From Prorocentrum cordatum (taxonomy: Eukaryota): 64,000 bases of DNA. Position 1 is the stretch's first letter, and the number at the start of each line of letters is the position of its first letter. Under the pieces are notes generated by a model. The model was not told the DNA's origin and made no database searches. It saw nothing but the letters and a program-made list of their open reading frames with translations. Location: the NCBI GenBank assembly GCA_963575745.1, contig CAUYUJ010000270.1:248001-312000 (forward strand). The letters are read 5' to 3'. The position numbers were made by a program, and so were the translations under genes. Of the stretch, positions 11,346-57,756 are shown one piece after another.

Positions 11346-11476
11346 AAAGGCCAAAGGGCCTTTTAAGAAAGGTTGGAGGAGGCTTCGAGCGAAACGAGCA
11401 CGCTCGTCGAGGACCATCCAAACGAAACAAACACGTTCTTCGAAGACGTCTCAAGCGAAACGAGCAGCATAAATAT

Positions 11477-11499
11477 ACGTAGACATTTGGTGGCTCAAG
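11477..11499 (+). other. Spliced-leader relic (variant with GG insertion)
   Basis: ACGTAGACATTTGGTGGCTCAAG, 37 nt before ATG 11537. Confidence 0.7.
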
Positions 11500-22630: not shown

Positions 22631-22639
22631 AGACTGATC

Positions 22640-22663: not shown

Positions 22664-22740
22664 ATTCCGAACTTCCCAAGAGTTTCACAAACCAAGACCC
22701 AAGCCGACGCGAGAGAGCGCCAGGGCTCCGAATATCGAGG

Positions 22741-38112: not shown

Positions 38113-38148
38113 CTACCATGTCTTTTTCGGTTGCGGGGCCTTATAAGT
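38113..38148 (+). repeat. Left TIR
   Basis: CTACCATGTCTTTTTCGGTTGCGGGGCCTTATAAGT, preceded by CA (38111-38112). Confidence 0.9.
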
Positions 38149-38307
38149 ACTTAAGACGCCTTATAACGACTTATAAAACAATTAAGAAAAAGTTAGCTTG
38201 GCTTTATCATAAGTGTTTGTAAGTGTTTATAAGTTCCCCATAAGTTTTCCATAAGTTTTATAAGTGTTTTTAAGTGTTTGGTTAAGTTTAACATAAGTGT
38301 TTTTAAC
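38140..38307. repeat. Left subterminal repeats (TTATAAG / ATAAGTGTT, ~10-bp period)
   Basis: AT-rich island in a GC-rich context; same motif at 52141-52420. Confidence 0.85.
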
Positions 38308-38685
38308 TTTTCTTGCTCTGTATATACATTGCCATTTGGGGCCCATATACCAGACAGCACTTGGCAGTCTATCACGCCTCAGCGTGCCAGGGGGCACGGT
38401 GGTGGATCTCATTAATTCACTGCGTGGGCAACCATGGGGCAACCACGGGACAACCAGAGGACAACGGCCTCAACCAGAACAAAGGTCCCAGAAATATTGC
38501 CACGACCACTGCATCAAACATCATCATAATCAAAAACGTAAGCATCATTCAAAACATCATCGGCATAAACGCAGCCATCGTAACCATCAGAAACATCATG
38601 TACGCAACAATCATATACATCACAGTCTCATGATTATAGCACGCAACATAAACATATCATCAACAGAACGCAAATGCCAACATCA

Positions 38686-38707
38686 ACCGAAGCCATTTTT
38701 GGCTTAG
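38686..38707 (+). other. Spliced-leader relic
   Basis: ACCGAAGCCATTTTTGGCTTAG; a second degenerate copy GCCCATTTTGGGCCCAG at 38742-38758. Confidence 0.75.
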
Positions 38708-38775
38708 TCCTTTATCGCACTATAGGGCGCAGTTCTTTGTCGCCCATTTTGGGCCCAGTTCCCGCGCGGTCAGGG

Positions 38776-40773
38776 ATGTCTCAGCTGATCGGTTTCGTTC
38801 GGCAGCGCGTCGAGTATGTGGCGCTCATGGCAAAGTGCGGCTCGACGGGCGACAAGCTCCAGCAGTTGAAGACCGACGCTTGCACTGGCATCCTACAGGC
38901 CATTCGCACCGTCAAGGGCGTGAAGCCAGAGGACGCCATGCAGATACACCAGATCATCAGTGAGTGCCTCCCGTCGAGCAGCGTGGAGCTCATCATGGCC
39001 AGCCTCGACGGAAAGGTGCATTTGGCAGGCACCACTCTGACTGGTGTGGTCATCCAGGAGAAGCAGGCCCACACTCACCTCGACCTCTACTTGACCGAGG
39101 AGGCCTGGACAAAGTTCCTCGACTCGAGCATTGACCCTCAGACTAAGCTGATGTCCATGGCGATGTTCTTCGTGCTGATCGGCCTTCGGAACCCCGACGA
39201 GAAAACGTTCGCTCGTGGCGCAGCGCTGGCCCTACAGACGGAACCATACAGCGTCGGTCGTCTCGTCGAGGAGACCCGCAGGTTGAAGCTGCTCGTGAAG
39301 TCCACGGCTGAGAGCTCCCCGCACATGCTTGTGGGGCCAACTGTGTATCCTGATGACGTGGAGGCGTTCAAGCAGATGTTCCCAGACGTGTGGAAGCAGG
39401 CCTTCGAGGCCTCTCCGCCAGCTCCTACGCGGTGGAGCCCGCAGCACAGGGCCATGGTGGAGCAGATGAAGGTCTGCAGGAGCTCGAAGAACGGGTGCGA
39501 GCAGGTAGTGCAGCCCGCGAGGGCGACCAGGAGCTTCATGCGGCAGTGCACGAGCAGCCCGTCCACCATGTGTGCACCGAGGTCCCTCCTACCTGGCGCA
39601 GTGGCGAACCCGTCGGCCATGGTGCCCTATACGGCGCCTTCGCCGATCGAGATCGGGGACTCGCATCAGTTGCCGCCTCCAGCGACCTTTCCAGGCGGTG
39701 CTCATCAAGTTCCAGGCGATGCTCTTGTTCCAGTCGGTGCTCAGACAGCTCCAGTCGGTGCCGCTCCAGTTCCACAGGCTGCTGCAGTTCCAGTCGGTGC
39801 TCATCCAGTTCCAGGCGGTGCTCATCAAGTTCCAGTCGGTGCTCACCCAGCTGCAGTTCCAGTCGGTGCTCATCAAGTTCCAGTCGGTGCTCAAGTTCCA
39901 GTCGGTGCTCCAGTCGGTGCCGCAGTTCCAGTCGGTGCTCCAGTCGGTGCTCACGTTCCAGTCGGTGCTGCCCAGGCGGTTGCAGGCCCGAGCATGAAGG
40001 AGGTCACGCAGATGATCCAGAAGAAGCTCAAGGGCGGCGCCAAGGACATCACGGAGCAGGCGGACGGCGCTGAGGGTGACGAGGACGGAATCGGTCGAAT
40101 GGCGATGGTGATGGCGACGGTGGCGACGGTGATGACGACGACGGTAGCGGTGATGATAACGACGGTGATGACAACGATGATGTTGACGATGACGTTAGCG
40201 ATGATGACGGCGGTGATGAGGGTGACGATGATGACGATGACGACGATGACGACGATGATGATGATGACGATGATGACGATGGCGTTGACGATGCTGATAA
40301 CGACGATAATGCTGACGATGATGACGACGATGATGATGACGATATTTGCCTCCTCCCCCTCCTCCTGGAGGGGGGCTGGGGAAGGCGTCAGGAATTGTGG
40401 CCCCGTCCTCTCCCCCCTCCCGACCTCTTCCGTCCAGGAGCCAAAGCTCGAGCCGATCGCGGCGCCGAAGAGCAAGGCCAAAGCCAAGGCCAAGGGCAAG
40501 GCCAAGGCAAAGGCCTCGAAGAAATCCCCTGCAGTGTGCAAGTCGGCATCCCCTCAGAACGTACATAAAGGTGATGACGACCTCAAGTATTCTACGAAGT
40601 TGCTTCCGAGGTATTTCAAGGGCGTGACGATCTACACGTCCATGGCAAAGAAGTGCTACAGAGTGAAGCCGCGCCCAGGTGCCATCGAGGAGACCCTCTT
40701 CGCTTTCGGCGTCCACGGCGGCCGCGCGAAGGCCTGGGCGGCAGCCGTGAAGCACGCGCGGTCCGTCAAGTGA
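38776..40773 (+). CDS. Transposon ORF A: hypothetical protein with PVGA repeats, probable intron 40084-40437, small basic C-terminal domain
   Basis: Part of the 699-aa ORF; ATG 38776 follows the SL relics. The (GAT/GAC)n block is bounded by GAG|GA and CAG|G in phase 0. Confidence 0.7.
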   Translation: MSQLIGFVRQRVEYVALMAKCGSTGDKLQQLKTDACTGILQAIRTVKGVKPEDAMQIHQIISECLPSSSVELIMASLDGKVHLAGTTLTGVVIQEKQAHTHLDLYLTEEAWTKFLDSSIDPQTKLMSMAMFFVLIGLRNPDEKTFARGAALALQTEPYSVGRLVEETRRLKLLVKSTAESSPHMLVGPTVYPDDVEAFKQMFPDVWKQAFEASPPAPTRWSPQHRAMVEQMKVCRSSKNGCEQVVQPARATRSFMRQCTSSPSTMCAPRSLLPGAVANPSAMVPYTAPSPIEIGDSHQLPPPATFPGGAHQVPGDALVPVGAQTAPVGAAPVPQAAAVPVGAHPVPGGAHQVPVGAHPAAVPVGAHQVPVGAQVPVGAPVGAAVPVGAPVGAHVPVGAAQAVAGPSMKEVTQMIQKKLKGGAKDITEQADGAEGDEDGIGRMAMVMATVATVMTTTVAVMITTVMTTMMLTMTLAMMTAVMRVTMMTMTTMTTMMMMTMMTMALTMLITTIMLTMMTTMMMTIFASSPSSWRGAGEGVRNCGPVLSPLPTSSVQEPKLEPIAAPKSKAKAKAKGKAKAKASKKSPAVCKSASPQNVHKGDDDLKYSTKLLPRYFKGVTIYTSMAKKCYRVKPRPGAIEETLFAFGVHGGRAKAWAAAVKHARSVK

Positions 40774-41519
40774 GGCGCGCGGTTCGATTCGAACCGTTCG
40801 AATTCTACGGGAGGGAGCTTGTGGTGATTCATTGCTCTCGGTGCGCGTGCGGGGCGCACGCATATCCCCGCATGTGCTGCCCTTCCTTTTCAGTCGTCCC
40901 GCGGCGGCGCGAAGCCGGAATTCGGCTGGCTCCCCGCGGGCGCGCTCTCCCTCGTCGTGGATACGGCCGCGATTGCTCAGTGTACGCAGAAAGGCAGAAA
41001 AGCAAACAGGTTGCTCAGCGTGCCCAGCATGACGACGACAACGGACGACGACGACGATAACGACGGACGACGACGATGACGACGGAGGAGGGCGGTTGAT
41101 TTTCAAAATGCGGCCCTCGCCTGAGCGCCTCGGACATTCGTCTTACAAGTCTGCAACAGCTACTAGGATGGAGGACAGGCCGTCATCAAAATGGGGCTCT
41201 CGCCGTGGCGCCGCGGACATCCGCCCTAAAGGTTTCAACAGCTCGAGGGATGGAGGGTGCGTACTCATCATGGTTGCCACCATCGTCGTCATCATCATAA
41301 CCACCGATGTCACCATCGCACGCATCATCGCACTAAAGGTTGATATCGCGACATACAATTACGATCACATCCATGAGCACGACGACACACATCGCAATGG
41401 TTCAACTAATACCACTTACATCGTCATGCTCACCATCCTTGCCGTAGGTAGCTACCTCGGCTCAGTCCTCGCGATTAGGCCCGCGCCGCGGCCCCTCCGT
41501 GAAGTGCGATCGCCCATAC

Positions 41520-41822
41520 ATGGCCCCGAAAACGCAACAGCAGCCCACGCGGGAGGCGCTGGCCCGCAAGGTGACTAGGCTCGAGAACCTTGCGCAGAAA
41601 TACAAGAACGAGCGCGACCTTGAGAAGAAAAAGCTTAAGGAACTAAGCCGTGAGAAGAAGTTGTTAGAGACCGCCATTGGGGACCTCTTGAAGACAGGCT
41701 TTCGGTTTCTCAGGTCAGGGTGGACCCCGACCGTGGTGAGGAGCGTAGTTCGCAAGGTGTTTGACGACGCTGGGCCGCATTGGATGAAGCTCAAAGTGTC
41801 TCAGAGCTCTGACAGTGATTGA
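41520..41822 (+). CDS. Transposon ORF B: 100-aa basic coiled-coil protein
   Basis: MAPKTQQQ... start; degenerate SL-like GGTAGCTACCTCGGCTCAG at ~41447-41465. Confidence 0.55.
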   Translation: MAPKTQQQPTREALARKVTRLENLAQKYKNERDLEKKKLKELSREKKLLETAIGDLLKTGFRFLRSGWTPTVVRSVVRKVFDDAGPHWMKLKVSQSSDSD

Positions 41823-42138
41823 GTCTGCCAGTGAGGTTATCGTTGCGCTGCGTTTTTAGATTTTGTCGCCAACTCCATCGGGGGTTGGAGGACGATGGGC
41901 GGAGGGAGGTTAGGGGGTGGGGGTGGAGTAGGGAGGAGGGGGGAGGATCGTAGTGCAACTTAGCAGGGCGGTGCAGCAGTCAGCGCGAGTTTGCCGTGAT
42001 TCGTTGCTCGGTGCCAGCAATGAGGAAAATCTTGGCGCGTCGTCTGCCCCCCCATATCATCCTCCCCCCACTCCCCCCCGCGAGAGGCTACGTGGATGCA
42101 TTGCCACATCTTCTGGCCCCCATCCACCCGTACATAGG

Positions 42139-42151
42139 ATTTTGGCTCAAG
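42139..42151 (+). other. Spliced-leader relic
   Basis: ATTTTGGCTCAAG, 13/13 with the SL 3' end. Confidence 0.75.
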
Positions 42152-42207
42152 CATTTCGCCTCGACCCTTTTTGCAGCTGCGCTCAGTGCCAGCATATATC
42201 GGACACA

Positions 42208-43110
42208 ATGCCAGGCGCGTTGTCCAAGTGCTCCAGTTGCGGGCAGGAGTGCCCAGAGGGGCACAAGGGCCGCTGCAGGAGGTGCAACACCATGAACACC
42301 AGGGTCCACCGCGTGCTGGAGGGCGATGACGCCAGCAAGTTAGCGTTCTCAGCGAAGGTCGTCGACAAGGCTGGCTTCTTCGAGCGCGCCAAGAACGTCT
42401 TCGGGGAGGAGCTGAGGTCCATGATCATGTCGGAGATCGAGGAGAAGTCCGAGAGCTTCACCGAGGTGGAGCTGCAGGGGACGGGGAGCTTCCTCGACGA
42501 GGAGGACATGAGGGACAAGTACAAGAACAAGCCGAAGCGCCTGCAGGGCATCTTGGATCGCGCGAGGCGCTTCACGGACCCGATTTCGGGCGTGGAGCTC
42601 ATCGAGGACATGGAGTACAAGAGCCTGTCGAGGACAGGGCAGAAGGAGACGTCCTCGGTGAAGCGCACGGCCAACAGCGAGGAGCAGTACAAGCCGCCGA
42701 AGAAGAAGAAGGCCGAGCAGCCTTCAGCCGCCGACGGTTCGACCGACCAGCCCGAGCCCTTGACTGATGCGGTCAAGAAGCACATCACCGCGGCGAAGGG
42801 TGTCATCGAGAAGGCAGTGGAGAAGCTCGGGAACTCGCAGTGCGGCATCCTGGATGAGCAGAAGCCCAACTTCTACGAGTACGTCCCGCAGTACGTCATC
42901 AACAGGAACGCCTCCGTGGTCGCCAGGGCCCAGGCGCTCGTGACGCTCATCGGCCTGGCCTTGGAGGCCGAACAGATCGTGAACCCAAAGGATGTCAAAA
43001 GCCAGATCGCGGAGCTGAAGTCGGAGCTGCAGGAGACCACGCGCATCACGAAGCTGCAGGTGACCGAGGCCAAGAAGTTGGTCGAGGAGCCTGAGGAGCC
43101 CGAGGCTTGA
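42208..43110 (+). CDS. Transposon ORF C: 300-aa protein with an N-terminal C4 zinc-finger-like motif and helical C-terminus
   Basis: CSSC-x10-CRRC, strong GC3 bias, NLS-like PPKKKK. Confidence 0.75.
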   Translation: MPGALSKCSSCGQECPEGHKGRCRRCNTMNTRVHRVLEGDDASKLAFSAKVVDKAGFFERAKNVFGEELRSMIMSEIEEKSESFTEVELQGTGSFLDEEDMRDKYKNKPKRLQGILDRARRFTDPISGVELIEDMEYKSLSRTGQKETSSVKRTANSEEQYKPPKKKKAEQPSAADGSTDQPEPLTDAVKKHITAAKGVIEKAVEKLGNSQCGILDEQKPNFYEYVPQYVINRNASVVARAQALVTLIGLALEAEQIVNPKDVKSQIAELKSELQETTRITKLQVTEAKKLVEEPEEPEA

Positions 43111-43658
43111 GGCCGCAGGCGGAGCTGCAGGAGCCAGCAGCGCGAGGTCGCACGACCTCGCCCGAGCCCCGTGGTGCACCGAGACGGCGGTGCAAGCGCA
43201 CTGTGTTTAGTGCGATTCCTATGCGCCGTTGCACGCTTTCACGTGGAGCCGACCCCCGCGGGCATGTGGTGGATCATTGCCCGCGGGCGTTCAAAGGGGA
43301 AAAACAGTCATCACCACCAACACCACCAACAACATCATGATCATCACAATCAAAATGAACATCACCAGCATCATAAGCTCTCAAAGGTCAGCATCAGCAA
43401 CATCATAGCCCGCACCAGCATCAACACCAACAACCTCATCATCAACATCATTATCATCAACTTCAGCATCAAAGGAAAGCAATTAACATCAACATCATTA
43501 ACATCATCATCGACATCATTAACACCATCATCGGCACCATTATCATTTCTCGGGGGGCAAACAAAGGAAGCAATTAACATGAAACTGGCGTGCCCTCGCC
43601 CCCCCCTCCCTCCTCGGTCAACCCCATCTGCCCTCCTCCGCCGTTTCAGTTCGAGGCT

Positions 43659-44033
43659 ATGGAGAGATCGGAGCCGCTCCCCGAAGTAGAGGCCGACTTC
43701 CGAGATGATATCTCTAGCTCCTCAAGCACTGCCTCTTTTATGGCCCGCACGGGGTGCGTAATTAGGTACCACAGGAGGTTAGAGACATTTGTGTTGCAAT
43801 GGTGCACTAAGCATAGATTGACTAAGTTCCGACCGTTGTCGCATCGCGAGCTGCAGAGAATCGAAATCCCAACCCCCTCTGCCATGCCTAACAATTTGGT
43901 CTGCCCGACCGTTCGCGCCCGATGGGATGAGATATACCAGCACATAGAGCCGCACGTCGAGGAGGCGATCGCGAATTTCCACAAGTGGGTCATGACCTCG
44001 AGCCCCGAGGGTTGGCAACCGTTCAAGGATTGA
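43659..44033 (+). CDS. Transposon ORF D: 124-aa hypothetical protein
   Basis: Complex-sequence ORF between low-complexity spacers; only a very degenerate SL-like sequence upstream. Confidence 0.45.
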   Translation: MERSEPLPEVEADFRDDISSSSSTASFMARTGCVIRYHRRLETFVLQWCTKHRLTKFRPLSHRELQRIEIPTPSAMPNNLVCPTVRARWDEIYQHIEPHVEEAIANFHKWVMTSSPEGWQPFKD

Positions 44034-45544
44034 CCCTAATTGCCCGAAACCTTCGAGGGGGTGGGAGGGGAGGATAGACCGAGGGCGGGAGGAGGGGAGG
44101 GTGGGGGGAGGGCAACGAAAAATGACCCCCCTGAGGAGGCCTTGCAGCGAACGGCACGCGGATTGGCTGAGATCAGCGTGGGAAGGCCGACTGCGGCCGA
44201 CTATGAGGACACGGGGGTGGAGGGAGGAGGGAGGAGGAAGGAGGGAGGAGGGGGGAGGGAGGAGGGGGGAGGGGGGAGGAAGGGAGGAGGAAGGGAGGAG
44301 GAAGGGAGGAAGGGAGGAGGAAGGGAGGAGGAAGGGAGGAGGAAGGGAGGAGGAAGGGAGGAGGAAGGGAGGAGGAGGGAGGAGGAAGGGAGGAGGAAAG
44401 GAGGGGGATAGGGAGGAGGGAGGGGGAAGGGAGGAGGAGGGAGGAGGAAGGGGGGAGGGAGGAGGAAGGGAGGAGGAAGGGAGGAGGAAGGGAGGAGGAA
44501 GGGAGGAGGAAGGGAGGAGGAGGGGAGGAGGAAGGGAGGAGGAAGGGAGGAGGGAGGAGGAAGGGAGGAGGAAGGGAGGAGGATAGGGAGGAGGAGGGAG
44601 GAGGGAGGGGGAAGGGAGGTTGAAAGGAGGGGCATGTCGGCCAGGAGATGGATATGTACATGAGCCTGCCGATGAACGAATCTGAGACCGCGCGCGAAGC
44701 TGGCTGGCCATGGCCGTTTCCTTTCTCCTAGGGATCGAGAGGCCAGCGTGGAAAACAAACGAGCGAGGGGCTCAGGATGGCCCATGGGGGCCTTATAAGA
44801 GGGCCCTGTAGGAAGGGCCAAGAGGGCCACGTGAGATCTTAAGGGGCGCAGGATTGCTCATGGGGGTTTCAGGGGGGCCCCAGGAAGTTTCCCATCGGGA
44901 CCCAAGAGCCCAAGCGGGCCCCCAGAGGGCCCCATCTGAAGCCTTTGGCACGGAGCTTTCCAGAGGGCTCCTGGAGATGTCAGGAGGGCTTCCCAGGAGG
45001 GCTCCAAGAGGGACCCATTTGAATTGGATGGCAGGATATAAGATCTCAGAGGGGCCCTGAGGGAACCCCAAGAGGATCTCATTTGAATTCAGAGTGGGGT
45101 TCGGGCTTATTGGAGTGCCCCCCCCATCTTGGCTGGGGAGGGGCCCGAGATGGATCCAGGAGGCCCCGCCCCCCGTGTGACGGAGGTGTGCCGGAATGTG
45201 CCGGGGACCCGCGGGGGCCCACGGCCAACGCAATGTATCGTGTGACGGGACCCCCCCCGTGTGACGGAGGTGTGCCGGAGGTGTGCCGGAGTGTGACGGG
45301 GACCCACGGGGAGGGGAGCAGGCTTTGGGGTGGAAATTTATGTTGGGGGGAACCTCCAGGGGGGGACTTGCGCGGCCACCCCCCGTGGGAGACTTATGTA
45401 CGGGGGCAAGGGCCGTCTCGGGGCCGTCTGAAAGCTTTCTTGGGCCCTTCCTTATAGGCTTTCATAAGGCCTCAGAAAAGCTCTCTTAAGGGCCCCCTAA
45501 CCGAACACACATACAAAAAACACGAGGGGAACCACCCCTTATGC

Positions 45545-46640
45545 TCCACCCGCATACCCACTCCCATAGGCTCCGCCCCCTTGAGTCCACCCCCACCATA
45601 GGCTCCACCCCCATCGGCCCCCCCCCCTTGGGCTCCACCCCCATAGGGTCCACCCCCATGGGCCCCACCCCACATGTAGGTCCCACCCCCAGAGGCTCCA
45701 CCCCCATAGGCTCCAACTGCATAGTTTCCACTCCCATACATGGCTCCACCCCGATAGGCCCCACCCACCCCCATAGGCTACCCCCCCATATAGGGTCCAC
45801 CCCCATGGGCTCCACCCCCCTGCATCCACCCCCTATCTCATAAGCCGCACCCCCATATAGGCCCCACCCCCACAGGCCCCACCCCCATGGGCTCCATCCC
45901 CATGGGCTCCCACCCCCATAGGCCCCACACCCATATACCCCACCCCCATAGGCCCTACCCCCATAAGCCCCACCCCCATGCATGGGCTCCACCCCAAAGC
46001 CAGAGGCTCCACCCCAGACCCCAGAGGCTCCACCCCTTTCCACCCTGGTATTTTCCATAGGCTCCACCCCCATAAGCCACCCCCCCTTCCCCATAGGCTC
46101 CACCACTTTCCATCCACCCCCATAGGCCCCACCCCCTCAGGCCACACCCCCATAGGCCCCACCCCCATAGGCCCCACCCCCATTTGGGCTCCAACCCCAT
46201 TTGGGCTCCACCCCCATGGGCTCACCCCCATAGGCTCCACCCCCACAGGGTCCACCCCCATAGGCTCCATTCGGCCCCGCCCCCATAGGCTCCACCCCCG
46301 TGAGCTCCAACCCCAAAGTTTCCACCCCCATAGCCTCCACGAGGATTGCAAAACAAAAAAAAAACAATGGGCTCCATCCCCATAGGCCCCACCATCCATG
46401 TATACGTCCCACCCCCATCAGCACCGCCCCCATAGCTTCCACCCCCATGGCCATGTAGGCTCCAATCCCACGGGCTCCCCCCCCACATATGGCCCCACCC
46501 CCATATTCCCACCCCCATGGGCTCCAGCCCCATGGACTCCAGGATCCCATATAGGCTCCACCCCCATGGGCTCCACCCCCATATAGACCCCACCCCCTTA
46601 TATGCCCCACCCACGGAGGCTCCAGCGCCCCCCCCAGGTA
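45545..46640. repeat. CCCCATAGGCTCCAC ~15-bp minisatellite inside the transposon
   Basis: Dozens of degenerate tandem units; a GGA-rich tract lies at 44215-44620. Confidence 0.9.
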
Positions 46641-46775
46641 AGCTCCACCTGTTTGGGGCCGTCGTTGGGCCATCGTCAGCGTGGAGCTGGCCCCCCTTGG
46701 CCTTCAGGGGAATTCTTATTCCGACGGGGCCGTTATTGGCCCCGTCGTCACTCTGCTAACCTCCTCAATCCGAGC

Positions 46776-46793
46776 TAGCCGTTTTGGCTCAAG
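46776..46793 (+). other. Spliced-leader relic
   Basis: TAGCCGTTTTGGCTCAAG, 17/18 with the SL. Confidence 0.85.
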
Positions 46794-46831
46794 GCATCGG
46801 CGCCCAACGCGCGCGCAGACCAGGGCTCATC

Positions 46832-47590
46832 ATGGAGGCCGCTCGGGACGTGGAGGCCCAGGTGCAGGCCGCGCGCCCCAGCTTCTGCATGCGGGTCCGT
46901 GTCCCCGAGGAGGACCTGCTGAGGGAGTACGACTACGTGACGCGCCTGCCAGTGCTGGTCCAGGTTCGCAAAAAGTACAAGAGCAGCCCAGCGAACGACC
47001 AGAAGCAGGTGACTGAGCATCCCAGCGCGAAAGAGCAGCACGAGCAGCCCAGCGCGAAAGAGCAGGAGCAGCCCAGCGCGAAAGAGCAGCACGGGCAGGA
47101 GGGGCAGCCCAGCGCGAAAGAGCAGCACGAGCCGAAGGAGCAGGTGAAGTTGATGGACGTCATCGAGCCCCTCAATGGTCCGACGACCGCCTACCCGACG
47201 GTGCGCAAACTAGAGTACAAGGAGCCCGCCGAGCAGGTGCTGGGGGCCGACCTCGACACCGACGTGGCGACGCAGCTGCAGGACAAGACGGAGAGGAAGA
47301 CCTCAGCTCTGCCGAGGGCCCCGACACCGAGCACGTTGGCAGTGGACGACTACTTGGCGAACATCCACGCGGCGATCGGCATGCCTGCCCCGTCGAAGTT
47401 GCCGAAGCACGACAAGACGGAGATCGTGGACCTGCTCGATGGCGACACGTTCGAGACCTCCATCTTCGACGCGCTGGCAGCCGAGCAGAGCAGCCAGCCG
47501 CCGCTTGAGTTTTCGCCGCCGCCCGACTCGCAGCCTCCAGCTGACTTGGACCCCTACGAGTGCGAGTCGTCGCAGTGCCTGTCGCGCTAG
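46832..47590 (+). CDS. Transposon ORF E: 252-aa hypothetical protein with QPSAKEQ repeats
   Basis: ATG 38 nt after the SL relic; GC3 bias. Confidence 0.65.
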   Translation: MEAARDVEAQVQAARPSFCMRVRVPEEDLLREYDYVTRLPVLVQVRKKYKSSPANDQKQVTEHPSAKEQHEQPSAKEQEQPSAKEQHGQEGQPSAKEQHEPKEQVKLMDVIEPLNGPTTAYPTVRKLEYKEPAEQVLGADLDTDVATQLQDKTERKTSALPRAPTPSTLAVDDYLANIHAAIGMPAPSKLPKHDKTEIVDLLDGDTFETSIFDALAAEQSSQPPLEFSPPPDSQPPADLDPYECESSQCLSR

Positions 47591-47904
47591 GCGGCGCGGT
47601 CGGGACGATGACTTGGACGGCGAGGAACGGCATGCAAGGAGGATGAGGGGCAGGATTGAGGGGGCGCGGATAGGGAAGATCATCTTCGAAAGTTTAGTGC
47701 GATTTCTGTGCGCCGTGTGTATATCACTCTTTGATGCGGCGCCGTTCCCCGCGGGCCTGTGGTGATTCATTGCCCGCAAACTGCAAGCTTGATAAATGGA
47801 AACAATCATCATCCTAACCCACTTAGTCCTCAACGCCATTATGGCAATCATAGCCATCACCGACGTCAGCACCAACATCATCAGCACCACCACAACCAGT
47901 ACTA

Positions 47905-48110
47905 ACTCACATTCGGTTTCGTCGGACCCGCTCGCATTCAGACGAACTCCTTTCCAGCCGCACTCGCATTCAGACTCGCTCCTTTCTACGTTCAGGTCTG
48001 TCAGACCCACTCGCGTCAGGCCCATTCGCATTCAGACCCGCTCGCATTACGACCCACTCGCATTCAGACCCACTCGCATTCAGACCCACTCGCATTCAGA
48101 CTCACTCCTT
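47905..48110 (+). repeat. CAGACCCACTCGCATT 16-bp tandem repeat
   Basis: Directly upstream of the transposase SL relic. Confidence 0.8.
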
Positions 48111-48131
48111 AGGACTCGTGCAGGTGCCATT

Positions 48132-48153
48132 TCCGTAGCCGTCTAGGCCCCAG
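48132..48153 (+). other. Full-length spliced-leader relic
   Basis: TCCGTAGCCGTCTAGGCCCCAG, 17/22. Confidence 0.65.
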
Positions 48154-48203
48154 TGGAAAGGCCACCCTTTAGCATATCGTTCCGCATAGTTTCCTTCGCG
48201 CTT

Positions 48204-50183
48204 ATGGCTGGCAGGAAGAGGAAGTTCGACCAACCGCTGCAGACATGTGCCGCTGCGGCGGCTTCGAGCGGGTGCGCTGCGCAGACGATGTTGCAGGCCA
48301 TGTCAGAGCAGACCGCGTCCGATGCGAGGAGGGTGCAATGGGCGCGCAAGCTATCCCACCGACTGCTGCACTCCATTCGGAACACAGGCACCCCGTACGG
48401 CAACGTGGCCCTTGCATCGTCGATGGCAGGCCCAAAGGGCACTCTTGAATTTGATCACGTGTGTCCAGCTGCACTCTTGTACCATTTGTGTTCTGCCTCG
48501 GCAGGCTTTTTCAATTTCCTTCGCGGGGTCGCAAGTTCCGTCGCCGACGGGTTTTTGGACGTCGTGATGTACCTGGACAAGGCTACGCCAGGCAACGAGA
48601 GGCGCCCTGATGATGGAAGGTCGTGCCAGTGCTTGTATTTCACGTTCCTGCAGTACCCCGATTGGTTTAGAAAAGGTGACTTTGCTTGGATGCCGTTTGC
48701 ATACGTGAGAGTGTCTGACCAAAAAAGCTCAGGCGTGACGGACTCACAGCTCGTTCGGTTCATGACCCGATCGTTTCTTGTGTCGTTGAACTGCGTTGGC
48801 TTGCAGTCACAGGGGGAGTTCATGCAATTTCGTGCTCGTCCCTCAGTGCTCGTCGCCGACTGGGAACAGCATGTGCGGGGCTTCAACCACATGGGTTTCA
48901 ACGGTAGCGTGCCCTGCGGATGGTGCCGCAATGTGCTGGGGCGGTGCCCCCCCTTTCAGCACGCCTACCTCGTCCACGTGGACAGCGCAGAGTACGACCG
49001 CATGGACCCGCACACGCCCGAGAGCAAGCACGAGCTGGCCAGGGACGTGCAGGCGTGCGCGCAGGGCGGAGGAAACCTCGCGCGCGTGCAACAGTCCACA
49101 GGCATCAAGTGGGACCCTGAAGGCGTGTTGTGGGACGACCTCGTGAGGTCCACGCTGCGCCCGCCCTGGTGCGAATATCCAGACTGGATGCACGTGTATG
49201 TGGCGTCAGGGGGAGTGGCGCAGTACGAGGTCAACGGGCTCGTGAACTTGATATGCGGTCACGGCATTACCAATCATGACATAGATGCATGGTGTAGCCA
49301 AGTCACTGCGCCGAGAAACTCGAAGAGCTTAGGGCGGAAATTTTTCGCGGACCGCATCGTCGCGGCGCCTGGTAAGCACCTGAAAGGCTTTGCAGCGGAG
49401 GCGCTTTCAGCTGTTGTAGTTTTGGGGCTTTTCATTGATATGGTTGTGGCGCCGCAAAACATCCCAGGGCTGCAGCGAGCATTGGACTGTTTCGCATTGC
49501 TTCGGGTTATATTGGCTATATTCCAGAGGGGCTGCCTTGCCGACATACCGACACTGCAGGGCGCCATGCGGACTCACCACGAACTGTTCGCGAGGCTGTA
49601 TCCGATGTCTGTGAAAAGGAAGATGCACCAGCAGAAACACTTGCCTGAGTTTTGGGTTCGGTGGAAAGTTCTCCTGTCTTGCTTTGGCCCTGAACGTCAC
49701 CACAAGCTGATGAAGCGCGTGCACGGCTACGCGTTTAACCGTAGTCCGAAAACAGTTCTCGCATGTGATTTGCAGAAGTTGGTGAAAGGATTGGGGAGGG
49801 CCGACACGGTGGAGCCATACAGTCTGCGTGGGTGCGTCCATGCATGCAACGTGACTTTCGCGACTTCAGGCCAGCGCCATATCCAGTGCACAGCCTGGGC
49901 ACTCCTTTTGAATTCACCGACGGGGCAACTCGCGAAGGGAGACCTCCTGCAGTGGCGCGAGAATGGGCTTATGCGCGTCGGGTTTGCTTTAGGCTTCGCG
50001 CGCGCAGATGGAGCCCGCCCCGAATACGTTGCCATCGCGCGACCCTGCAGGGCGCTCAGCCCGTCGACTTGGGCGAGGCAAGGCGCCGAGGTGTGCGTCG
50101 TGCGGTCGCCAGCAATTGTAGGGAACGTGTTTTTTGCAGACGTTGGTGGCTTGATCACGCCTGCGTTGTTGCACGACCCCTAG
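48204..50183 (+). CDS. CMC-superfamily (CACTA/Mirage/Chapaev-like) DDE transposase, intact, 659 aa
   Basis: VMYLD (D), LVADWE (D), CGWC (C2C), DWMH (M/L-H), KMHQQKHL (H3H), SCFGPERHH (E): the ordered signature of CMC transposases. Confidence 0.85.
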   Translation: MAGRKRKFDQPLQTCAAAAASSGCAAQTMLQAMSEQTASDARRVQWARKLSHRLLHSIRNTGTPYGNVALASSMAGPKGTLEFDHVCPAALLYHLCSASAGFFNFLRGVASSVADGFLDVVMYLDKATPGNERRPDDGRSCQCLYFTFLQYPDWFRKGDFAWMPFAYVRVSDQKSSGVTDSQLVRFMTRSFLVSLNCVGLQSQGEFMQFRARPSVLVADWEQHVRGFNHMGFNGSVPCGWCRNVLGRCPPFQHAYLVHVDSAEYDRMDPHTPESKHELARDVQACAQGGGNLARVQQSTGIKWDPEGVLWDDLVRSTLRPPWCEYPDWMHVYVASGGVAQYEVNGLVNLICGHGITNHDIDAWCSQVTAPRNSKSLGRKFFADRIVAAPGKHLKGFAAEALSAVVVLGLFIDMVVAPQNIPGLQRALDCFALLRVILAIFQRGCLADIPTLQGAMRTHHELFARLYPMSVKRKMHQQKHLPEFWVRWKVLLSCFGPERHHKLMKRVHGYAFNRSPKTVLACDLQKLVKGLGRADTVEPYSLRGCVHACNVTFATSGQRHIQCTAWALLLNSPTGQLAKGDLLQWRENGLMRVGFALGFARADGARPEYVAIARPCRALSPSTWARQGAEVCVVRSPAIVGNVFFADVGGLITPALLHDP

Positions 50184-50512
50184 CCTAGCCACGTGCAGTA
50201 AAACAATGTAAACACGCATCGCATCAAACATCCAACATCAAACATCAAACAATAAAGCACTTGCCACTTGCATCAAACATCAAACATCAAACATCAAACA
50301 ATCAAAAAATACAGCAAGAAACCAACAACGCAGTAAAACCATAAAGCAATGACATCGAACATCAAACATAAAATGTCAATCAAACATCAAACACGCATCG
50401 CATCAAACATCAAACGTCAAACAGTAAACAATAACATATCAAACATCAAACATCAAACTCCACTCACTGCCGTCTTTCATCGCCGCCATGCCGCAGCCGT
50501 TTCCGAATCCGA

Positions 50513-51355
50513 ATGCATATTCGCGGGGCTCCCCGCTTTCTCGCCCCAATACGGTACGTGAACTCTCGTGGCGAGTCCATTCCTTTGTTGCGGCCGCGTA
50601 TCACCGACCCCATCCTGCTGCAGCCGCGCAGCGCTGCCGCCAGGCCGCCTTGGCTGAGGCCGCGCGGCGGCGGCGACGGCGACGCTGAGGTAGGGCTTGC
50701 CGACCAGGCCGCGTCGGAGGAGCTCGACATCCAGCAGGTTGCGCTCGATTTTTGCAGGGGCATCAGGCAGGCCGACTCGGGGGAGCTCGCCGACCAGGCT
50801 GCCTCGGACGCTGCAGCCAACCAGGACACGCTCGCCGACCAGGACAAGGCCGCCTCCGACGCTGCAGCCAACCAGGACAGGCTCGCCGACCAGGCCGCTA
50901 CGGGGGAGCTCGCCGACAAGGCCGCCTCGGACAAGCCCCCCAACCAGGACGTGCTCGCCGACCAGGCCGCTACGGGGGAGCTCGCCGACAAGGCCGCCTC
51001 GGACGGTGCAGCCGTCACCGACCAGGCCGCTGCGGGGGAGCTCGCAGACCAGGCCGCCTCGGACGGCAGCCAGGACGTGCTCGCCGACCAGGCCGCTAAG
51101 GGGCTCGCCGACCAGGCCGCCTCGGACGGCGCAGCCAACCAGGACGCGCTCGCCGAGGCCGCGGAGGAGCTCGACGACAAGTCGGTCTGCGACGGCAGCA
51201 CGACCGAGTGCGACGAGAGCGAAGATCACCGCCCAAAGCGACGCCGCACTCTGGACGAGCGGATGAGCGATTTACGCAAGTTTGCCCGCAGGCTGCGCAG
51301 GCATAGAGATGTGCTGCTTTCGCGGCCGTCGGGCGGTGGCCCCAGCCCGCAGTAG
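50513..51355 (+). CDS. Transposon ORF G: acidic repeat protein (LADQAA units) with a basic C-terminus
   Basis: 280-aa ORF with in-frame repeats; GCCGCAGCCGTTT (like the SL 5' half) upstream. Confidence 0.55.
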   Translation: MHIRGAPRFLAPIRYVNSRGESIPLLRPRITDPILLQPRSAAARPPWLRPRGGGDGDAEVGLADQAASEELDIQQVALDFCRGIRQADSGELADQAASDAAANQDTLADQDKAASDAAANQDRLADQAATGELADKAASDKPPNQDVLADQAATGELADKAASDGAAVTDQAAAGELADQAASDGSQDVLADQAAKGLADQAASDGAANQDALAEAAEELDDKSVCDGSTTECDESEDHRPKRRRTLDERMSDLRKFARRLRRHRDVLLSRPSGGGPSPQ

Positions 51356-52140
51356 GCGGTGGCTCCGACAGGAAACACGGCCTGCACGAAAAAAAACATC
51401 ATCACTTTCACCAGCATCAGCATCATTACGCATCACCAACACGAACAACTAGAATGTACATCACCAACTACCAATCGCCACCAATCAACATCACTAACAT
51501 CACTAATCCACCGATTTAACATCAATATCACCACAAACCAACATCACCATCATTAACATCAACATCATCAACATCATCATCATCAACATCAACATCATTA
51601 ACATCATCAACATCTTCATCATCACCACTACCATCACAATCAACGCGATAACAACGTTCTTGTATATATTCCAGCGGCGCTGCCGCGCGATTCCGCCGCC
51701 CCGCTCGGGAGGCAGAGAGGCGGCACGGGCAGCGACCTGGCGAAACCTCGGCGGACCCACCCGAGGCGGCAGCGAGGCGACACGTGCAACAGCGTGGCGA
51801 ATCCTCCGCAGACCCACCCAGCGCACGAGGCGGCAACGAGGCGGCGCGGACGGCAACGCGTCGAAACCTCGGCGGACCCGCCCAGCGCACGCGGCGGCAA
51901 TGCTAGGTTCACAATAACCGCGTGCAACGTGATATAGGCAACATACAGCCCGCGTAACTTTATAATGCGACCCGAACGGCCCCCAACACTTCCTGCACGA
52001 ACTAGAAGTCATGAGTTTTGCGAAGGCGGTCATATGAGCAATGTTACGGCCAACATGAGTTTTCATAGGTAACCTGTAAGTACGTATGACAGATATGCTG
52101 TGCATTTTGTAAAGACCCGAGATCGCCCATACGTTGTTTT

Positions 52141-52420
52141 CATAAGTGTTCCGTAAGTGCCAACATAAATTTCATAAGTGTTTATAAGTGTTTCATAAGT
52201 TTTTGATAAGTTTTATAAGTGTTTATAAGTTTTCGATGAAACCTTATGTTGGCCTTAACATACCACTTGTGATCGCCTTGTGGAACTTATAACTTCTAGT
52301 TTGCGTTATATGTTTTTTAGACCTTATGGGCCGCCTTATAAAGTTATTTGTGTTATAAACTGGTTATAACAAGTTGTACATTGGTTATAAATTGGTTGTG
52401 TAACGCCGCCTAACCACTTA
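52141..52420. repeat. Right subterminal repeats
   Basis: CATAAGTGTT / TTATAAG units. Confidence 0.85.
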
Positions 52421-52451
52421 TAAGGCACCACAACCGAAAAAGACATGGTAG
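52416..52451 (-). repeat. Right TIR
   Basis: Reverse complement is CTACCATGTCTTTTTCGGTTGTGGTGCCTTATAAGT; followed by CA (52452-52453). Confidence 0.9.
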
Positions 52452-52453
52452 CA

Positions 52454-53520
52454 GGGTCCGGCGCGTCGCAGCACTCCTTGGATAGGACTCGATGGCGTTC
52501 GGCGCGATCAACGGCGATCAGTGGTCGGGCGCCAGAGCAGCGGCGGAGTGGCTCGGCTCGTCGCTCCCCGACGCTCATTTCCTCCAGGAGACGCGCGTCT
52601 TCGACGACGAGGCGGCGGGACGGGCCAGGCAATGGGGCGCTGGCGTCGGCCGCCAACTTGCGCACGGCCCTGCGCGACGCACAGGGCACAGCCGCCTGGC
52701 GGTCTCAGGCGGCGTCGGGGTGCTAGTTGCAAACGACATAGGCTTAGCCACGCGGCGTACGTGGACGCCACCCGGGCCCATATAATCCCCCTTAAGTAGG
52801 CGCGCGCACCTCGGCGGAAGGGCCTCGATCATCATCTTGCCCCTCTGCGTGGTCACCTCCGTCGGCCTTGACGGGGAAAATATTGACCTCCTGCAGTGCG
52901 TGGCGTCGCTCCTTGGGCAGTTCTGCAAGCCGTTCCTAATCGGCGCTGGCTGGAACATCAGCCCCGAGGTCCTGCTGGCACGCAGTGGGTCAACCAGCTG
53001 GGCTGAGTCGTCCTGGCCTCCGACAGCCCCACGCGCGGCGACTCGGAGTGCGACGTCGCGTCGGCCACCCTGGGGCACAGGGCCACGGAGCCGCAGGCAC
53101 ACTTGGCGAAGCCCACTGGCACCCAGACCCCTGCCACGGCGGCCGAGCAGGAGTTGGGAGTCCAGCCGCTGGAGGACCTGCAGGCCGCATGCGCCGCCTG
53201 GCTCGACGCGGCGGAGCAGCGCCTGCCGGCGAAGCTGGAGCTTGAGTCGGCCAGCGCGCGGCACTACGCGGGCCGCGGCCGTGGCACTCGCTTGGTACAG
53301 CGCCCGCTCGTGGAGCTGCGCGGCGTCCGGCACGGGCGCGCGGTGGGGGTTGCTCCGCTGCTGGCGCGGGCTGAGACGCCGGGGCCATGCGGCCCGCGGG
53401 TCCAAGGGCCGCCGTCCGAATCTGCGAGACCAGCTCGCCGGGCAAGCGGCCGCGCGTCGGCCGCCGCCGGCTGCGTCCGAGGCCCCCGCCCTCGCCCGCG
53501 GCTCACTGTTCAATCCTCCC
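52454..53520 (+). mobile_element. APE-type endonuclease region of the interrupted non-LTR element (degenerate, 3'-truncated)
   Basis: GAINGDQW, HFLQETR, SGGVGVLV, FLIGAGWNISPE (GDxN motif), then RHYAGR, which resembles RRYVGR preceding the RT in the 29.7-kb element. Confidence 0.75.
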
Positions 53521-53619
53521 GAGTCGGACCCCGAAGCCAGTTTTTAGGGCGGGCCGGGCGTTACGCCTAAGACTTCCTCACCATTTACGACACTGAAGCT
53601 TAAAAGTGGCAGCAAATTC

Positions 53620-54110
53620 AAAGACGGAGGGCGGGTCGCTTTCAAAATGTGGCTCTCGCCTTAGCGCCGCTCGCACATTCGTTATAACAATTTGCTAAGA
53701 GTTCCACAGATTGAGGGCGGGTGGTTTTCAACATGTGGTTCTCGCCTTAGCGCCGCGCACTTTCGTCTAGCAAAACAAATAATTTCACGGATTGAGGGCG
53801 GGTCGTTTTCAAAATGTGGCTCTCGCCTTAGCGCCGCGCACATTCGTTTTGAGAATTCGCAAAGAGTTTCACATATTGAGGGCGGGTGGTTTTCAAAATG
53901 TGGTTCTCGCCTCAGCGCCGCGCACTTTCGTCTTAAAAGATTAGAAGAATTTCGCGGATTGATGAGGGCGGTGTCGTTTTCAAAATGTGGCTCTCGCTTT
54001 AGCACCGCGCACATTCGTTTTGAGAATGTGCAAAGAGTTTCACAGATTGAGGGCGGTTCCTTTTCAAAATGCGGCTCTCGCCGTAGCGCCGCGCACATTT
54101 GTTTCCACAG
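53620..54110 (+). repeat. ~85-bp tandem repeat, 6 copies
   Basis: GAGGGCGG at 53627, 53713, 53794, 53878, 53964, 54049. Confidence 0.9.
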
Positions 54111-57650: not shown

Positions 57651-57756
57651 AGACGGNNNNNNNNNNNNNNNNNNNNNNNNNNNNNNNNNNNNNNNNNNNN
57701 NNNNNNNNNNNNNNNNNNNNNNNNNNNNNNNNNNNNNNNNNNNNNNNNNNNNNNNN

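What the first reader, a model, noticed from the sequence alone, without database searches (positions are those of the whole stretch)
38686..50512. Spliced-leader relic in front of nearly every gene inside the transposon
Seen: SL-like sequence up to ~70 nt before the ATG of ORF A (38686, plus a second copy at 38742), C (42139), E (46776) and the transposase (48132), with weaker traces before B, D and G. Known: genomic SL relics mark retro-copied trans-spliced mRNAs in dinoflagellates. Inference: either the DNA transposon was built by serial capture of its own or host cDNAs, transposase included, or it keeps SL mimics as cis-encoded leaders or trans-splice acceptors (most end in AG) to express a polycistronic array.
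Basis: partly seen in the sequence, partly recalled or inferred. Interest (0 to 1): 0.82.

Follow-up and report, generated by a model that had tools for sequence, protein, structure and literature searches.

The report
Spliced-leader relics inside a dinoflagellate DNA transposon
Five of the seven genes inside a 14-kb cut-and-paste transposon, its transposase included, carry a decayed copy of the dinoflagellate spliced leader just upstream, the known footprint of genes copied back from mRNA, and neighbouring genes outside the transposon carry it too.

Summary
DinoSL-like sequences are strongly enriched on the + strand: 7 hits at score >=26 against 0.08 expected and 0 on the - strand. They lie at the stated coordinates, 38-71 nt upstream of the first ATG of ORFs A, C and E (strong), the transposase (p=0.003) and B (p=0.016). 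D and G have none, so the count is 5 of 7 ORFs.

The transposon is real. It has 51-nt terminal inverted repeats at 38113 and 52451, TTATAAG subterminal repeats, and a 659-aa transposase with a RAG1/Transib-like fold (Z 18.5) plus a C-terminal BAH domain.

The relics are not peculiar to the transposon. Equally good ones precede at least five + strand ORFs and one - strand ORF outside it. Six of 18 distant transposase relatives in metagenome contigs also carry one upstream.

Best reading: these are ordinary dinoflagellate mRNA-recycling relics, here marking the element's own trans-spliced cistrons. ORF C travels with the transposase in distant relatives, and four ORFs share an element-specific 3'UTR hairpin, which argues against capture of host cDNAs. 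A selected "SL mimic" role is untested, because no RNA data or other copies could be reached.

I rate it a new variant of a known kind, of moderate interest.

The parts
38113..38163 (+). Left terminal inverted repeat (starts CTACCATGTCTTTTTCGGTTG; with the two preceding bases it reads CACTACC)
   Evidence: pair I2 (51 nt, 84% complementary); the 24-mer occurs only here and at 52451 (0 and 1 mismatch).
52401..52451 (-). Right terminal inverted repeat
   Evidence: The flanks read CA|element|CA, a possible 2-bp target duplication (1/16 by chance).
38164..38320 (.). Left subterminal TTATAAG/ATAAGT repeats
   Evidence: 13 motifs in the 500-nt bin at 38000. Only three bins in the window reach >=4.
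52100..52400 (.). Right subterminal TTATAA/ATAAGT repeats
   Evidence: 18 motifs in the bin at 52000.
38687..38707 (+). SL relic A1 (CCGAAGCCATTTTTGGCTTAG)
   Evidence: Score 27. It lies 71 nt before the ATG at 38776, which is the first ATG downstream.
38742..38759 (+). Second, weaker SL relic A2 (CGCCCATTTTGGGCCCAG)
   Evidence: Score 20. Only 0.8% of 100-nt background windows reach 20.
38776..40773 (+). ORF A (665 aa; orphan; contains an in-frame ATG/GAC-rich microsatellite at 40091-40355)
   Evidence: One relative only (65% identity). No Pfam match.
41444..41466 (+). Weak SL trace before ORF B
   Evidence: Score 18, p=0.016.
41520..41822 (+). ORF B (100 aa)
42131..42151 (+). SL relic C (…ATAGGATTTTGGCTCAAG)
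   Evidence: Score 27, 56 nt before the ATG at 42208.
42208..43110 (+). ORF C (300 aa, N-terminal CxxC…CxxC), the conserved partner gene of the transposase
   Evidence: tblastn hits beside T-like genes in L014, L015, L022 and L023, E 1e-12 to 8e-8. Full-length alignment.
43659..44033 (+). ORF D (124 aa), no SL relic
   Evidence: score 12, p=0.52.
46771..46793 (+). SL relic E (CCGAGCTAGCCGTTTTGGCTCAAG), the best one inside the element
   Evidence: Score 32, 38 nt before the ATG at 46832.
46832..47590 (+). ORF E (252 aa, orphan)
48133..48153 (+). SL relic T (CCGTAGCCGTCTAGGCCCCAG)
   Evidence: 5 mismatches of 21. Score 22, p=0.003, 50 nt before the ATG at 48204.
48204..50183 (+). Transposase (659 aa): RAG1/Transib-like core (about residues 9-533) plus a C-terminal BAH-like domain (537-654)
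   Evidence: AF2 pLDDT 87, pTM 0.86. Foldseek RAG1 E 2e-7. VIA Z 18.5 to RAG1, 17.0 to BbRAGL, 15.9 to HzTransib, 10.9 to the ZMET2 BAH domain. 7216 representatives at E<=1e-3. No Pfam match.
50513..51355 (+). ORF G (280 aa, repeat-rich), no significant relic
   Evidence: Score 16, p=0.07.
40820..40835 (+). 3'UTR motif TGTGGTGATTCATTGC (loop of a hairpin) after ORF A. Further copies at 41992-42007 (after B), 43265-43280 (after C) and 47758-47773 (after E).
   Evidence: 4 matches, all + strand and all inside the element, against 0.34 expected. Stems differ between copies. Absent from the 41 related loci apart from 2 chance-level matches.
43299..43548 (+). A-rich, G-poor (ACATCA)n tract after the 3'UTR of C. 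Similar tracts at 38500-38666, 50196-50487 (after T) and 51389-51669 (after G, starting with A8).
   Evidence: 5 of the window's 8 such + strand tracts are inside the element. They may be poly(A)-derived (inference).
11475..11499 (+). SL relic outside the element (score 30), 37 nt before the ORF at 11537. Others end at 12781, 13880, 15776, 22663 and 35833 (+), and one spans 8504-8524 (-).

Best explanation
The SL-like sequences are genuine relic DinoSLs. A relic DinoSL is the 5' tag of a mature, trans-spliced mRNA that was reverse-transcribed and written back into DNA. In this genome that process marks genes in general, and the 14.3-kb TIR transposon (38113-52451) has not escaped it. Its own cistrons (A, B, C, E and the transposase) each begin with a relic, followed by an AUG-free leader of 38-71 nt and then an intron-free ORF.

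The element is therefore a same-strand array of processed-mRNA-derived cassettes held between transposon ends. The cassettes come mainly from the element's own transcripts, not from captured host genes.

Inferred, not shown: the array is transcribed as one or a few long precursors and resolved by SL trans-splicing at or beside the relics. Each relic offers two AG acceptors. Inferred from decay levels: the relics were already in the element when it inserted here.
For: - Enrichment and strand bias: 7 + strand hits >=26 against 0.08 expected and 0 on the - strand. The shuffled-pattern control gives 0.05.
- Position: 5 of 7 element ORFs have a relic within 100 nt upstream at p<=0.016. In every case the first ATG after the relic is the ORF start, as expected for a 5'UTR.
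- The distances of 38-71 nt are close to the published -50 to -100 window for relics (PMC6050394 passages).
- The same signature is present outside the element: 5 of 14 + strand ORFs tested at p<=0.008, plus one - strand ORF. This points to a genome-wide process.
- The similarity between upstream regions is confined to the SL itself. No larger duplicated promoter block is shared.
- The genes are the element's own. C-like genes accompany T-like genes in L014, L015, L022 and L023. A, B, C and E share a 3'UTR motif found only inside the element (4 matches against 0.34 expected).
- The pattern recurs in the family. Six of 18 transposase relatives have an SL-like sequence scoring >=20 within 150 nt upstream, against 3.3% of 487 background windows. 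These relatives share less than 58% amino-acid identity, so the relics cannot be a neutral inheritance from a common ancestor.
- C, T and G are followed by short A runs and then A-rich tracts.
- None of 9 relic ends is followed by GT, so these are not SL RNA genes.
- Relic decay is roughly 6-24% per relic, judged by eye. That is at or above the 16% difference between the TIR arms.
Against: - No RNA evidence at all.
- D and G lack relics.
- No target-site duplications flank the individual cassettes (p 0.045-0.8), and there are no clean poly(A) tails. The integration route is therefore unknown.
- Simple homologous replacement by a cDNA cannot insert a non-homologous SL, so the way the relics entered an intact element is unexplained.
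- The element rate (5 of 7) is higher than the rate outside (5 of 14). The outside ORFs are mechanical calls and the difference is not significant, but it leaves room for selection on the relics.
- The 18 relatives are not all independent: L007, L009 and L010 are near-identical to each other, as are L014 and L015.
Confidence: 0.6

Rival explanations
1. Functional SL mimic. The element keeps SL-like leaders under selection as portable expression modules in front of each gene. They could act as a TTTT-type promoter or initiator, as the preferred trans-splice acceptor, or as a translation-competent leader. This would make a multi-gene DNA transposon self-sufficient in a genome without conventional promoters.
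For: - Passages of PMC6050394 report that relics at -50 to -100 are better conserved whatever their age, and propose TTT(G) in the relic as a promoter.
- Passages of PMC9651163 discuss a DinoSL in a dinoflagellate RNA virus genome as mimicry.
- SL-like sequences recur upstream of transposase relatives that share less than 58% amino-acid identity.
- 5 of 7 element ORFs carry one, against 5 of 14 outside.
- All five in-element relics keep the internal AG. The chance of that under about 20% decay is roughly 0.1 by my own arithmetic.
Against: - The relics show ordinary decay. T has 5 of 21 mismatches, and C and E have insertions in the 5' part.
- D and G do without a relic.
- Host genes nearby have equally good relics.
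- Recurrent re-acquisition explains the relatives equally well.
- The one cross-copy comparison available is uninformative (98% identity throughout).
Confidence: 0.2
2. Pack-type capture. A TIR element carrying only T (and C) acquired A, B, D, E and G as retro-copies of unrelated host mRNAs that inserted into it one after another.
For: - A, B, D, E and G are orphans with no relatives beside transposase homologues in the 41 loci. A has a single relative.
- The relic-plus-intronless-ORF structure fits a retro-copy.
- A-rich tracts follow some of the cassettes.
Against: - A, B and E share the 3'UTR hairpin motif with the conserved element gene C. The motif is absent from the other 50 kb of the window, and unrelated host mRNAs should not share it.
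- No target-site duplications surround the cassettes.
- T and C carry relics themselves, although they are the element's own genes.
Confidence: 0.15
3. The matches are chance or low-complexity artefacts, or fragments of SL RNA donor genes.
For: Some score-20/21 hits lie in the C-rich 15-nt repeats at 46174-46465 and in the CCCCAAG repeats at 35488. These are likely spurious.
Against: - 7 observed against 0.08 expected at score >=26, and 0.05 with shuffled patterns.
- Strand bias and the first-ATG rule.
- No GT donor follows any of 9 relic ends.
- Rfam gives nothing relevant for 36000-54000.
Confidence: 0.03

Closest known systems
Relic DinoSL and mRNA recycling (retrogenes) in dinoflagellates. 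Slamovits & Keeling 2008 as described in passages of PMC3229502 and PMC7245778; review PMC6050394.
   Same: A sense-strand copy of the 22-nt DinoSL a few tens of nt upstream of the start codon, an intronless ORF, several genes in one unidirectional array, and decay that varies with age.
   Different: Here the tagged genes lie between the TIRs of a class II transposon and include its transposase and a conserved partner gene. The two relics before A are 35 nt apart, not abutting and truncated at the internal AG as in the published tandem relics (passages). My four literature searches found no paper describing relics inside a TIR DNA transposon.
Transib/RAG1/ProtoRAG transposases, and possibly CMC (CACTA/Plavaka) elements
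   Same: Whole-core structural match to RAG1, covering model residues 9-533 against RAG1 460-1001 (Z 18.5). Invariant D125, near-invariant D219, and invariant C238, C241, H475, H479 and E497 are spaced like the RAG1 DDE and zinc ligands; that mapping is recalled, not computed. The element also has TIRs with subterminal repeats, and the left end reads CACTA.
   Different: No sequence-level match to any Pfam transposase family or to any PDB chain. No 5-bp target duplication. An added C-terminal BAH domain. The Plavaka and Transposase_21 link is only a language-model lead (scores 0.93 and 0.91).
SL-resolved polycistrons (kinetoplastids, nematode operons)
   Same: Closely spaced same-strand ORFs, each preceded by a potential AG acceptor.
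   Different: Polycistronic transcription is not shown here, and those systems leave no SL copies in the DNA.
DinoSL upstream of virus-derived genes in Symbiodiniaceae (PMC9651163, passages)
   Same: Foreign or selfish genes in a dinoflagellate genome that carry an upstream DinoSL (13 of 59 in that paper), read there as evidence of integration through mRNA.
   Different: Those are endogenised viral genes near retroelements, not the cargo and transposase of a TIR element.

Membership tests
Relic DinoSL / dinoflagellate retrogene | Sense-strand sequence similar to the 22-nt DinoSL upstream of the coding region, above chance | tested here: met
   A, C and E score 27-32; T scores 22 (p=0.003); B scores 18 (p=0.016). 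D and G are not met.
Relic DinoSL / dinoflagellate retrogene | Relic lies within the usual 5'UTR distance of the start codon (-50 to -100 per PMC6050394), with no intervening ATG | tested here: met
   Distances are 38-71 nt, and the first ATG downstream is the ORF start in 5 of 5 cases.
Relic DinoSL / dinoflagellate retrogene | Poly(A) remnant at the 3' end of the retro-copy | tested here: inconclusive
   Short A runs (A5-A8) followed by A-rich G-poor tracts occur after C, T and G. None occurs after A, B or E.
Relic DinoSL / dinoflagellate retrogene | Mature transcripts carry a new SL joined at or in the relic | not testable with these tools
Class II TIR DNA transposon | Terminal inverted repeats bounding the unit | tested here: met
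   51 nt at 84%; the first 24 nt have 0 and 1 mismatches and are unique in the window.
Class II TIR DNA transposon | Target-site duplication | tested here: inconclusive
   Only a 2-bp CA|CA is present, and there is no 3- or 5-bp duplication.
Class II TIR DNA transposon | Encodes a DDE-type transposase | tested here: met
   Confident model, RAG1/Transib/P-element matches, invariant acidic and Cys/His columns. Catalysis was not assayed.
Class II TIR DNA transposon | Multiple copies or empty sites in the genome | not testable with these tools
   No genome is held. The relatives L007-L010 are 96-98% identical units, and L010 departs from L009 beyond L009:7516.
Transib / RAG1-like superfamily | RAG1-core architecture (RNase H fold with an inserted zinc-binding module) | tested here: met
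   Z 18.5, rmsd 5.5 Å, 458 residues aligned to mouse RAG1. Z 15.9 to HzTransib.
Transib / RAG1-like superfamily | 5-bp target duplication and CACAGTG-like terminal heptamer (features recalled) | tested here: not met
   The flanks CGCCA and CAGGG differ. The termini read CTACCATG, or CACTACC on the left only.
CMC (CACTA / Plavaka) superfamily | Match to Transposase_21, Plavaka or KDZ profiles | tested here: not met
   0 of 20 family members match any of these Pfam families at E<=1. The only link is the atlas lead.
SL RNA donor gene | SL exon followed by a GT donor and intron | tested here: not met
   0 of 9 relic ends are followed by GT.

The most novel reading that the evidence does not exclude
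The SL copies are not passive scars. They are portable expression cassettes that a RAG1-like DNA transposon family has adopted. Each gene of the element carries its own host-derived leader, serving as acceptor and/or TTTT initiator, and an element-specific 3' hairpin. The multi-gene element can therefore be expressed wherever it lands in a promoter-poor dinoflagellate genome. The leaders are renewed by repeated passage of the element's mRNAs through reverse transcription, which would make the element a class II transposon whose cargo is maintained through an RNA intermediate.
Probability: 0.17. Interest if true: 0.78.

Novelty: new variant of a known kind. Interest (0 to 1): 0.48.

Why it matters
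DinoSL relics are the standard marker of retro-copied genes in dinoflagellates. Finding them in front of the transposase and partner gene of an intact TIR element shows that the mRNA-recycling process also rewrites the inside of class II transposons. It may equally mean that such transposons are assembled from processed mRNAs.

This gives a concrete locus at which to ask how selfish DNA gets expressed in a genome that relies on trans-splicing rather than gene-specific promoters. It also gives a place to test whether relics have a cis function.

Separately, the transposase belongs to a very large, unannotated family (7216 representatives) with a RAG1/Transib-like core fused to a BAH chromatin-reader fold. 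That is of interest for the evolutionary history of RAG-like recombinases.

Tried and rejected
- Whole-genome search: no genome is held for this window.
- Expression: no RNA holder was listed among 7 runs.
- Cross-copy conservation of the relic against its flank: the only multi-copy relatives (L007-L010) are 98% identical across the whole spacer. All other pairs share <=57% amino-acid identity. The test is uninformative.
- Target-site duplications around single cassettes: none found.
- Restoring a host ORF by removing the element in silico: the open frames continue under several assumed duplication lengths in this GC-rich DNA. Inconclusive.
- Per-position conservation of the SL among 12 relics: the free-gap alignment inflates matches, so I did not use it.
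- No result from any of these: Pfam on 10+18 ORFs and on 20 transposase relatives, PDB by sequence, Rfam, and earlier findings of this scan.
- ORFs A and G against the neighbours of the L009 transposase: no similarity.
- The element's TIR and 3'UTR motif are absent from the 41 related loci.
- I did not fold ORFs A or C.

Full report
WHAT THE WINDOW IS. The window has about 60% G+C. Its long ORFs lie mostly on one strand and almost all lack Pfam matches: 1 clear match, a minus-strand AAA_11/AAA_12 helicase, among 28 ORFs scanned. No whole genome is held for it. The 22-nt dinoflagellate spliced leader is DCCGTAGCCATTTTGGCTCAAG. I first typed it from recall and then confirmed it in passages of PMC7245778 and PMC6050394.

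CHECK OF THE OBSERVATION: ENRICHMENT. I ran a local-alignment scan with the 21-nt core.
- The + strand gives 15, 8, 7 and 7 hits at scores >=20, 22, 24 and 26. The - strand gives 5, 2, 1 and 0.
- Fifty composition-matched simulations give 4.24, 1.2, 0.38 and 0.08 per strand.
- Forty shuffled versions of the SL pattern, run on the real + strand, give a mean of 1.2 hits >=22 (maximum 4) and 0.05 hits >=26 (maximum 1).
The enrichment is therefore real and strand-specific.

CHECK OF THE OBSERVATION: POSITIONS.
- 38687-38707, score 27.
- 38742-38759, score 20.
- 42131-42151, score 27, with an exact ATTTTGGCTCAAG.
- 46771-46793, score 32.
- 48133-48153, score 22, with 5 of 21 mismatches.
I compared each with 639 100-nt windows of the minus strand.
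- A, C and E exceed every background window.
- The transposase (T) has p=0.003.
- B has p=0.016.
- G has p=0.07 and D has p=0.52.
So 5 of 7 ORFs carry a relic. In all five, the first ATG downstream of the relic is the start of the long ORF, 38-71 nt away. Across the window, 7 of the 8 + strand hits >=22 are followed within 100 nt by a first ATG opening >=100 codons, against 18% for random positions. None of 9 relic ends is followed by GT, so these are not SL RNA donor genes.

IS THERE A TRANSPOSON? Yes.
- A 51-nt inverted repeat (84% complementary) lies at 38113-38163 and 52401-52451. Both arms start CTACCATGTCTTTTTCGGTTG.
- The 24-nt terminus occurs nowhere else in the window.
- Just inside each end lie dense TTATAAG/ATAAGT repeats, with 13 and 18 motifs per 500 nt. 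Only one other bin in the window reaches 4.
- The flanks read CA|element|CA. A 2-bp duplication is possible but weak evidence, and 3- and 5-bp duplications are absent.

GENES OF THE ELEMENT. Seven + strand ORFs lie between the ends: A 38776-40773, B 41520-41822, C 42208-43110, D 43659-44033, E 46832-47590, T 48204-50183 and G 50513-51355.

THE TRANSPOSASE (ORF T).
- It has no Pfam or PDB sequence match.
- It has 28 relatives in the word-indexed search and 7216 representatives at E<=1e-3 in the exhaustive one.
- An AlphaFold model built from 20 relatives is confident (pLDDT 87, pTM 0.86).
- Residues 9-533 align to the RAG1 core: Foldseek E 2e-7 and VIA Z 18.5, rmsd 5.5 Å over 458 residues.
- Other matches are BbRAGL Z 17.0, HzTransib Z 15.9 and P-element transposase Z 13.9.
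- Residues 537-654 match BAH domains (ZMET2 Z 10.9; also DNMT1 and ORC1).
- D125, C238, C241, H475, H479 and E497 are invariant and D219 is nearly invariant. Their spacing resembles my recollection of the RAG1 DDE and zinc ligands; I did not compute that mapping.
- A language-model search points to Plavaka and Transposase_21 clusters (scores 0.93 and 0.91). This is only a lead.

ARE THE RELICS PECULIAR TO THE ELEMENT? No.
- Four of the seven strongest relics are outside it, ending at 11499, 13880, 22663 and 35831. Weaker ones end at 12781 and 15776.
- Each is followed by a first ATG that opens an ORF of 110-264 aa, except 35831 (73 aa).
- A minus-strand relic at 8504-8524 precedes the 539-aa ORF 6833-8452 by 52 nt.
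- Of 14 mechanically called + strand ORFs outside the element, 5 have an upstream relic at p<=0.008.
This is the published picture for dinoflagellates.
- Relics arise when SL-bearing mRNAs are reverse-transcribed and reintegrated (passages of PMC3229502 and PMC7245778).
- They are typically found -50 to -100 from the start codon (PMC6050394 passages).

OWN GENES OR CAPTURED HOST GENES? Two results favour the element's own genes.
- First, ORF C has relatives (23-30% identity, E 1e-12 to 8e-8, alignable over the full length) next to T-like genes in four metagenome loci: L014, L015 (near-duplicates of each other), L022 and L023. C is therefore an old partner of this transposase.
- Second, a 16-nt motif, TGTGGTGATTCATTGC (up to 3 mismatches), occurs four times in the window. 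All four are on the + strand, inside the element, and 47-170 nt after the stops of A, B, C and E, against 0.34 expected.
- That motif forms the loop of a hairpin whose stem differs between copies. C and E share about 90 nt of 3'UTR.
- Unrelated host mRNAs should not share such a module, and it is absent from the related loci.
- Around the relics themselves, the upstream regions share nothing beyond the SL. The relics were therefore not spread by duplicating a promoter block.

THE TRANSPOSASE FAMILY ELSEWHERE.
- Of 18 metagenome relatives with a (near-)complete N-terminus, 6 have an SL-like sequence scoring >=20 within 150 nt upstream: L003 26, L004 27, L017 24, L023 23, L006 20 and L032 20. 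Only 3.3% of 487 background windows reach that score.
- Some of the 18 are near-duplicates of each other.
- At score >=26 the 41 loci give 4 hits on the gene strand and 0 on the other.
- These relatives share less than 58% amino-acid identity with each other and with the window. The relics are therefore either re-acquired again and again or kept by selection.
- L007-L010 are 96-98% identical units with an SL-like sequence abutting the ATG of the gene after the transposase. L010 departs from L009 beyond L009:7516. This suggests a repeated unit, but it gives no power for a conservation test.

MECHANISM. Shown: the relics, their positions, the TIR element, the transposase fold, the conserved T-C partnership, and the shared 3' motif.
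Inferred:
(i) Each cistron passed through a processed mRNA.
(ii) The array is expressed through SL trans-splicing at or near the relics.
(iii) The A-rich, G-poor tracts after C, T and G, one of which starts with A8, are decayed poly(A). Five of the window's 8 such tracts are inside the element.
(iv) The relics predate this insertion. Their decay, roughly 6-24% by eye, is at least as great as the 16% difference between the TIR arms.
Unexplained: how SL-tagged cDNAs entered an element without destroying it. No target duplications flank the single cassettes, and plain homologous replacement cannot add a non-homologous SL.

RIVALS.
- A selected SL mimic (promoter, acceptor or leader) is compatible with the recurrence in relatives and with the published promoter hypothesis. 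It is not needed to explain the data and could not be tested.
- Pack-type capture of host cDNAs remains possible for the orphans A, B, D, E and G, but the shared 3' motif argues against it.
- Chance and SL RNA genes are excluded for the strong sites.

LITERATURE. Four full-text searches found no paper describing DinoSL relics inside a TIR DNA transposon or before a transposase gene. I read only passages of PMC3229502, PMC7245778, PMC9651163, PMC6050394 and PMC7789003, and no supplements. Subscription papers, including Slamovits & Keeling 2008 and Song et al. 2017, are known to me only through those passages.

VERDICT. This is a known phenomenon (relic DinoSL) in a new setting: the genes of an intact RAG1-like TIR transposon. 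Interest is moderate at 0.48. The bolder reading, portable SL leaders as an expression device for the transposon, has a probability of about 0.17.

Noticed in passing
window 40820-40835, 41992-42007, 43265-43280, 47758-47773 (+): An element-specific 3'UTR motif, TGTGGTGATTCATTGC, follows ORFs A, B, C and E (4 matches against 0.34 expected). It sits in the loop of a hairpin whose stem changes between copies: GGGAGC/GCTCTC, GCGGGC/GCCCGC and CCCGCGGGCA/TGCCCGCGGG. It could be a 3'-end or protein-binding signal. Single-sequence fold z-scores are only -0.7 to -2.8.
   Followed up: partly
window 48204-50183 (+): The transposase belongs to a large unannotated family (7216 representatives at E<=1e-3). 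Its core has a RAG1/Transib/ProtoRAG-like fold (Z 18.5) and it carries a C-terminal BAH-like domain (Z about 11). No Pfam family matches.
   Followed up: partly
window 11000-23200 (+): A second gene cluster. The ORFs at 11537, 12834, 13947 and 22741 are each preceded by tandem ~33-nt repeats (TTCGAGGATGTCTCAAGCGAAAC...), then an SL relic, then ATTTCGAGC. The upstream regions of 11537 and 22741 share a 74-nt block that includes the relic (84% identity). All four ORFs are orphans.
   Followed up: partly
window 34405-34580, 41084-41250, 53620-54136: An 83-84-nt satellite (GAGGGCGGGTGGTTTTCAAAATGTGGCTCTCGCC...) occurs both outside the element and between ORFs A and B inside it.
   Followed up: no
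window 44190-44650 and 45550-46630: A long (GGAGGA)n-type 11-nt repeat and a C-rich 15-nt repeat (CCCCCATAGGCTCCA) fill most of the 3.7-kb gap between ORFs C/D and E. The C-rich repeat produces spurious SL-like hits of score 20-21.
   Followed up: no
window 40091-40355 (+), inside ORF A: An in-frame GAT/GAC/GGT microsatellite is read as a Met/Thr/Val-rich stretch. It is the reverse complement in type of the (ACATCA)n spacers and may be an insertion or an intron rather than coding sequence.
   Followed up: no
window 25458-27044 (-): The only ORF with a clear Pfam match is an SF1 helicase (AAA_11 E 4e-15, AAA_12 E 6e-11) on the minus strand.
   Followed up: no
L007:2290-2640 and the equivalent stretches of L008-L010: In these related units, the spacer after the transposase holds three to four copies of a hairpin (CAGCGGTTGCTACCGCT). 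The spacer is more conserved between copies than the start of the next ORF.
   Followed up: no
window 57657-57756: A run of 100 N (an assembly gap).
   Followed up: no
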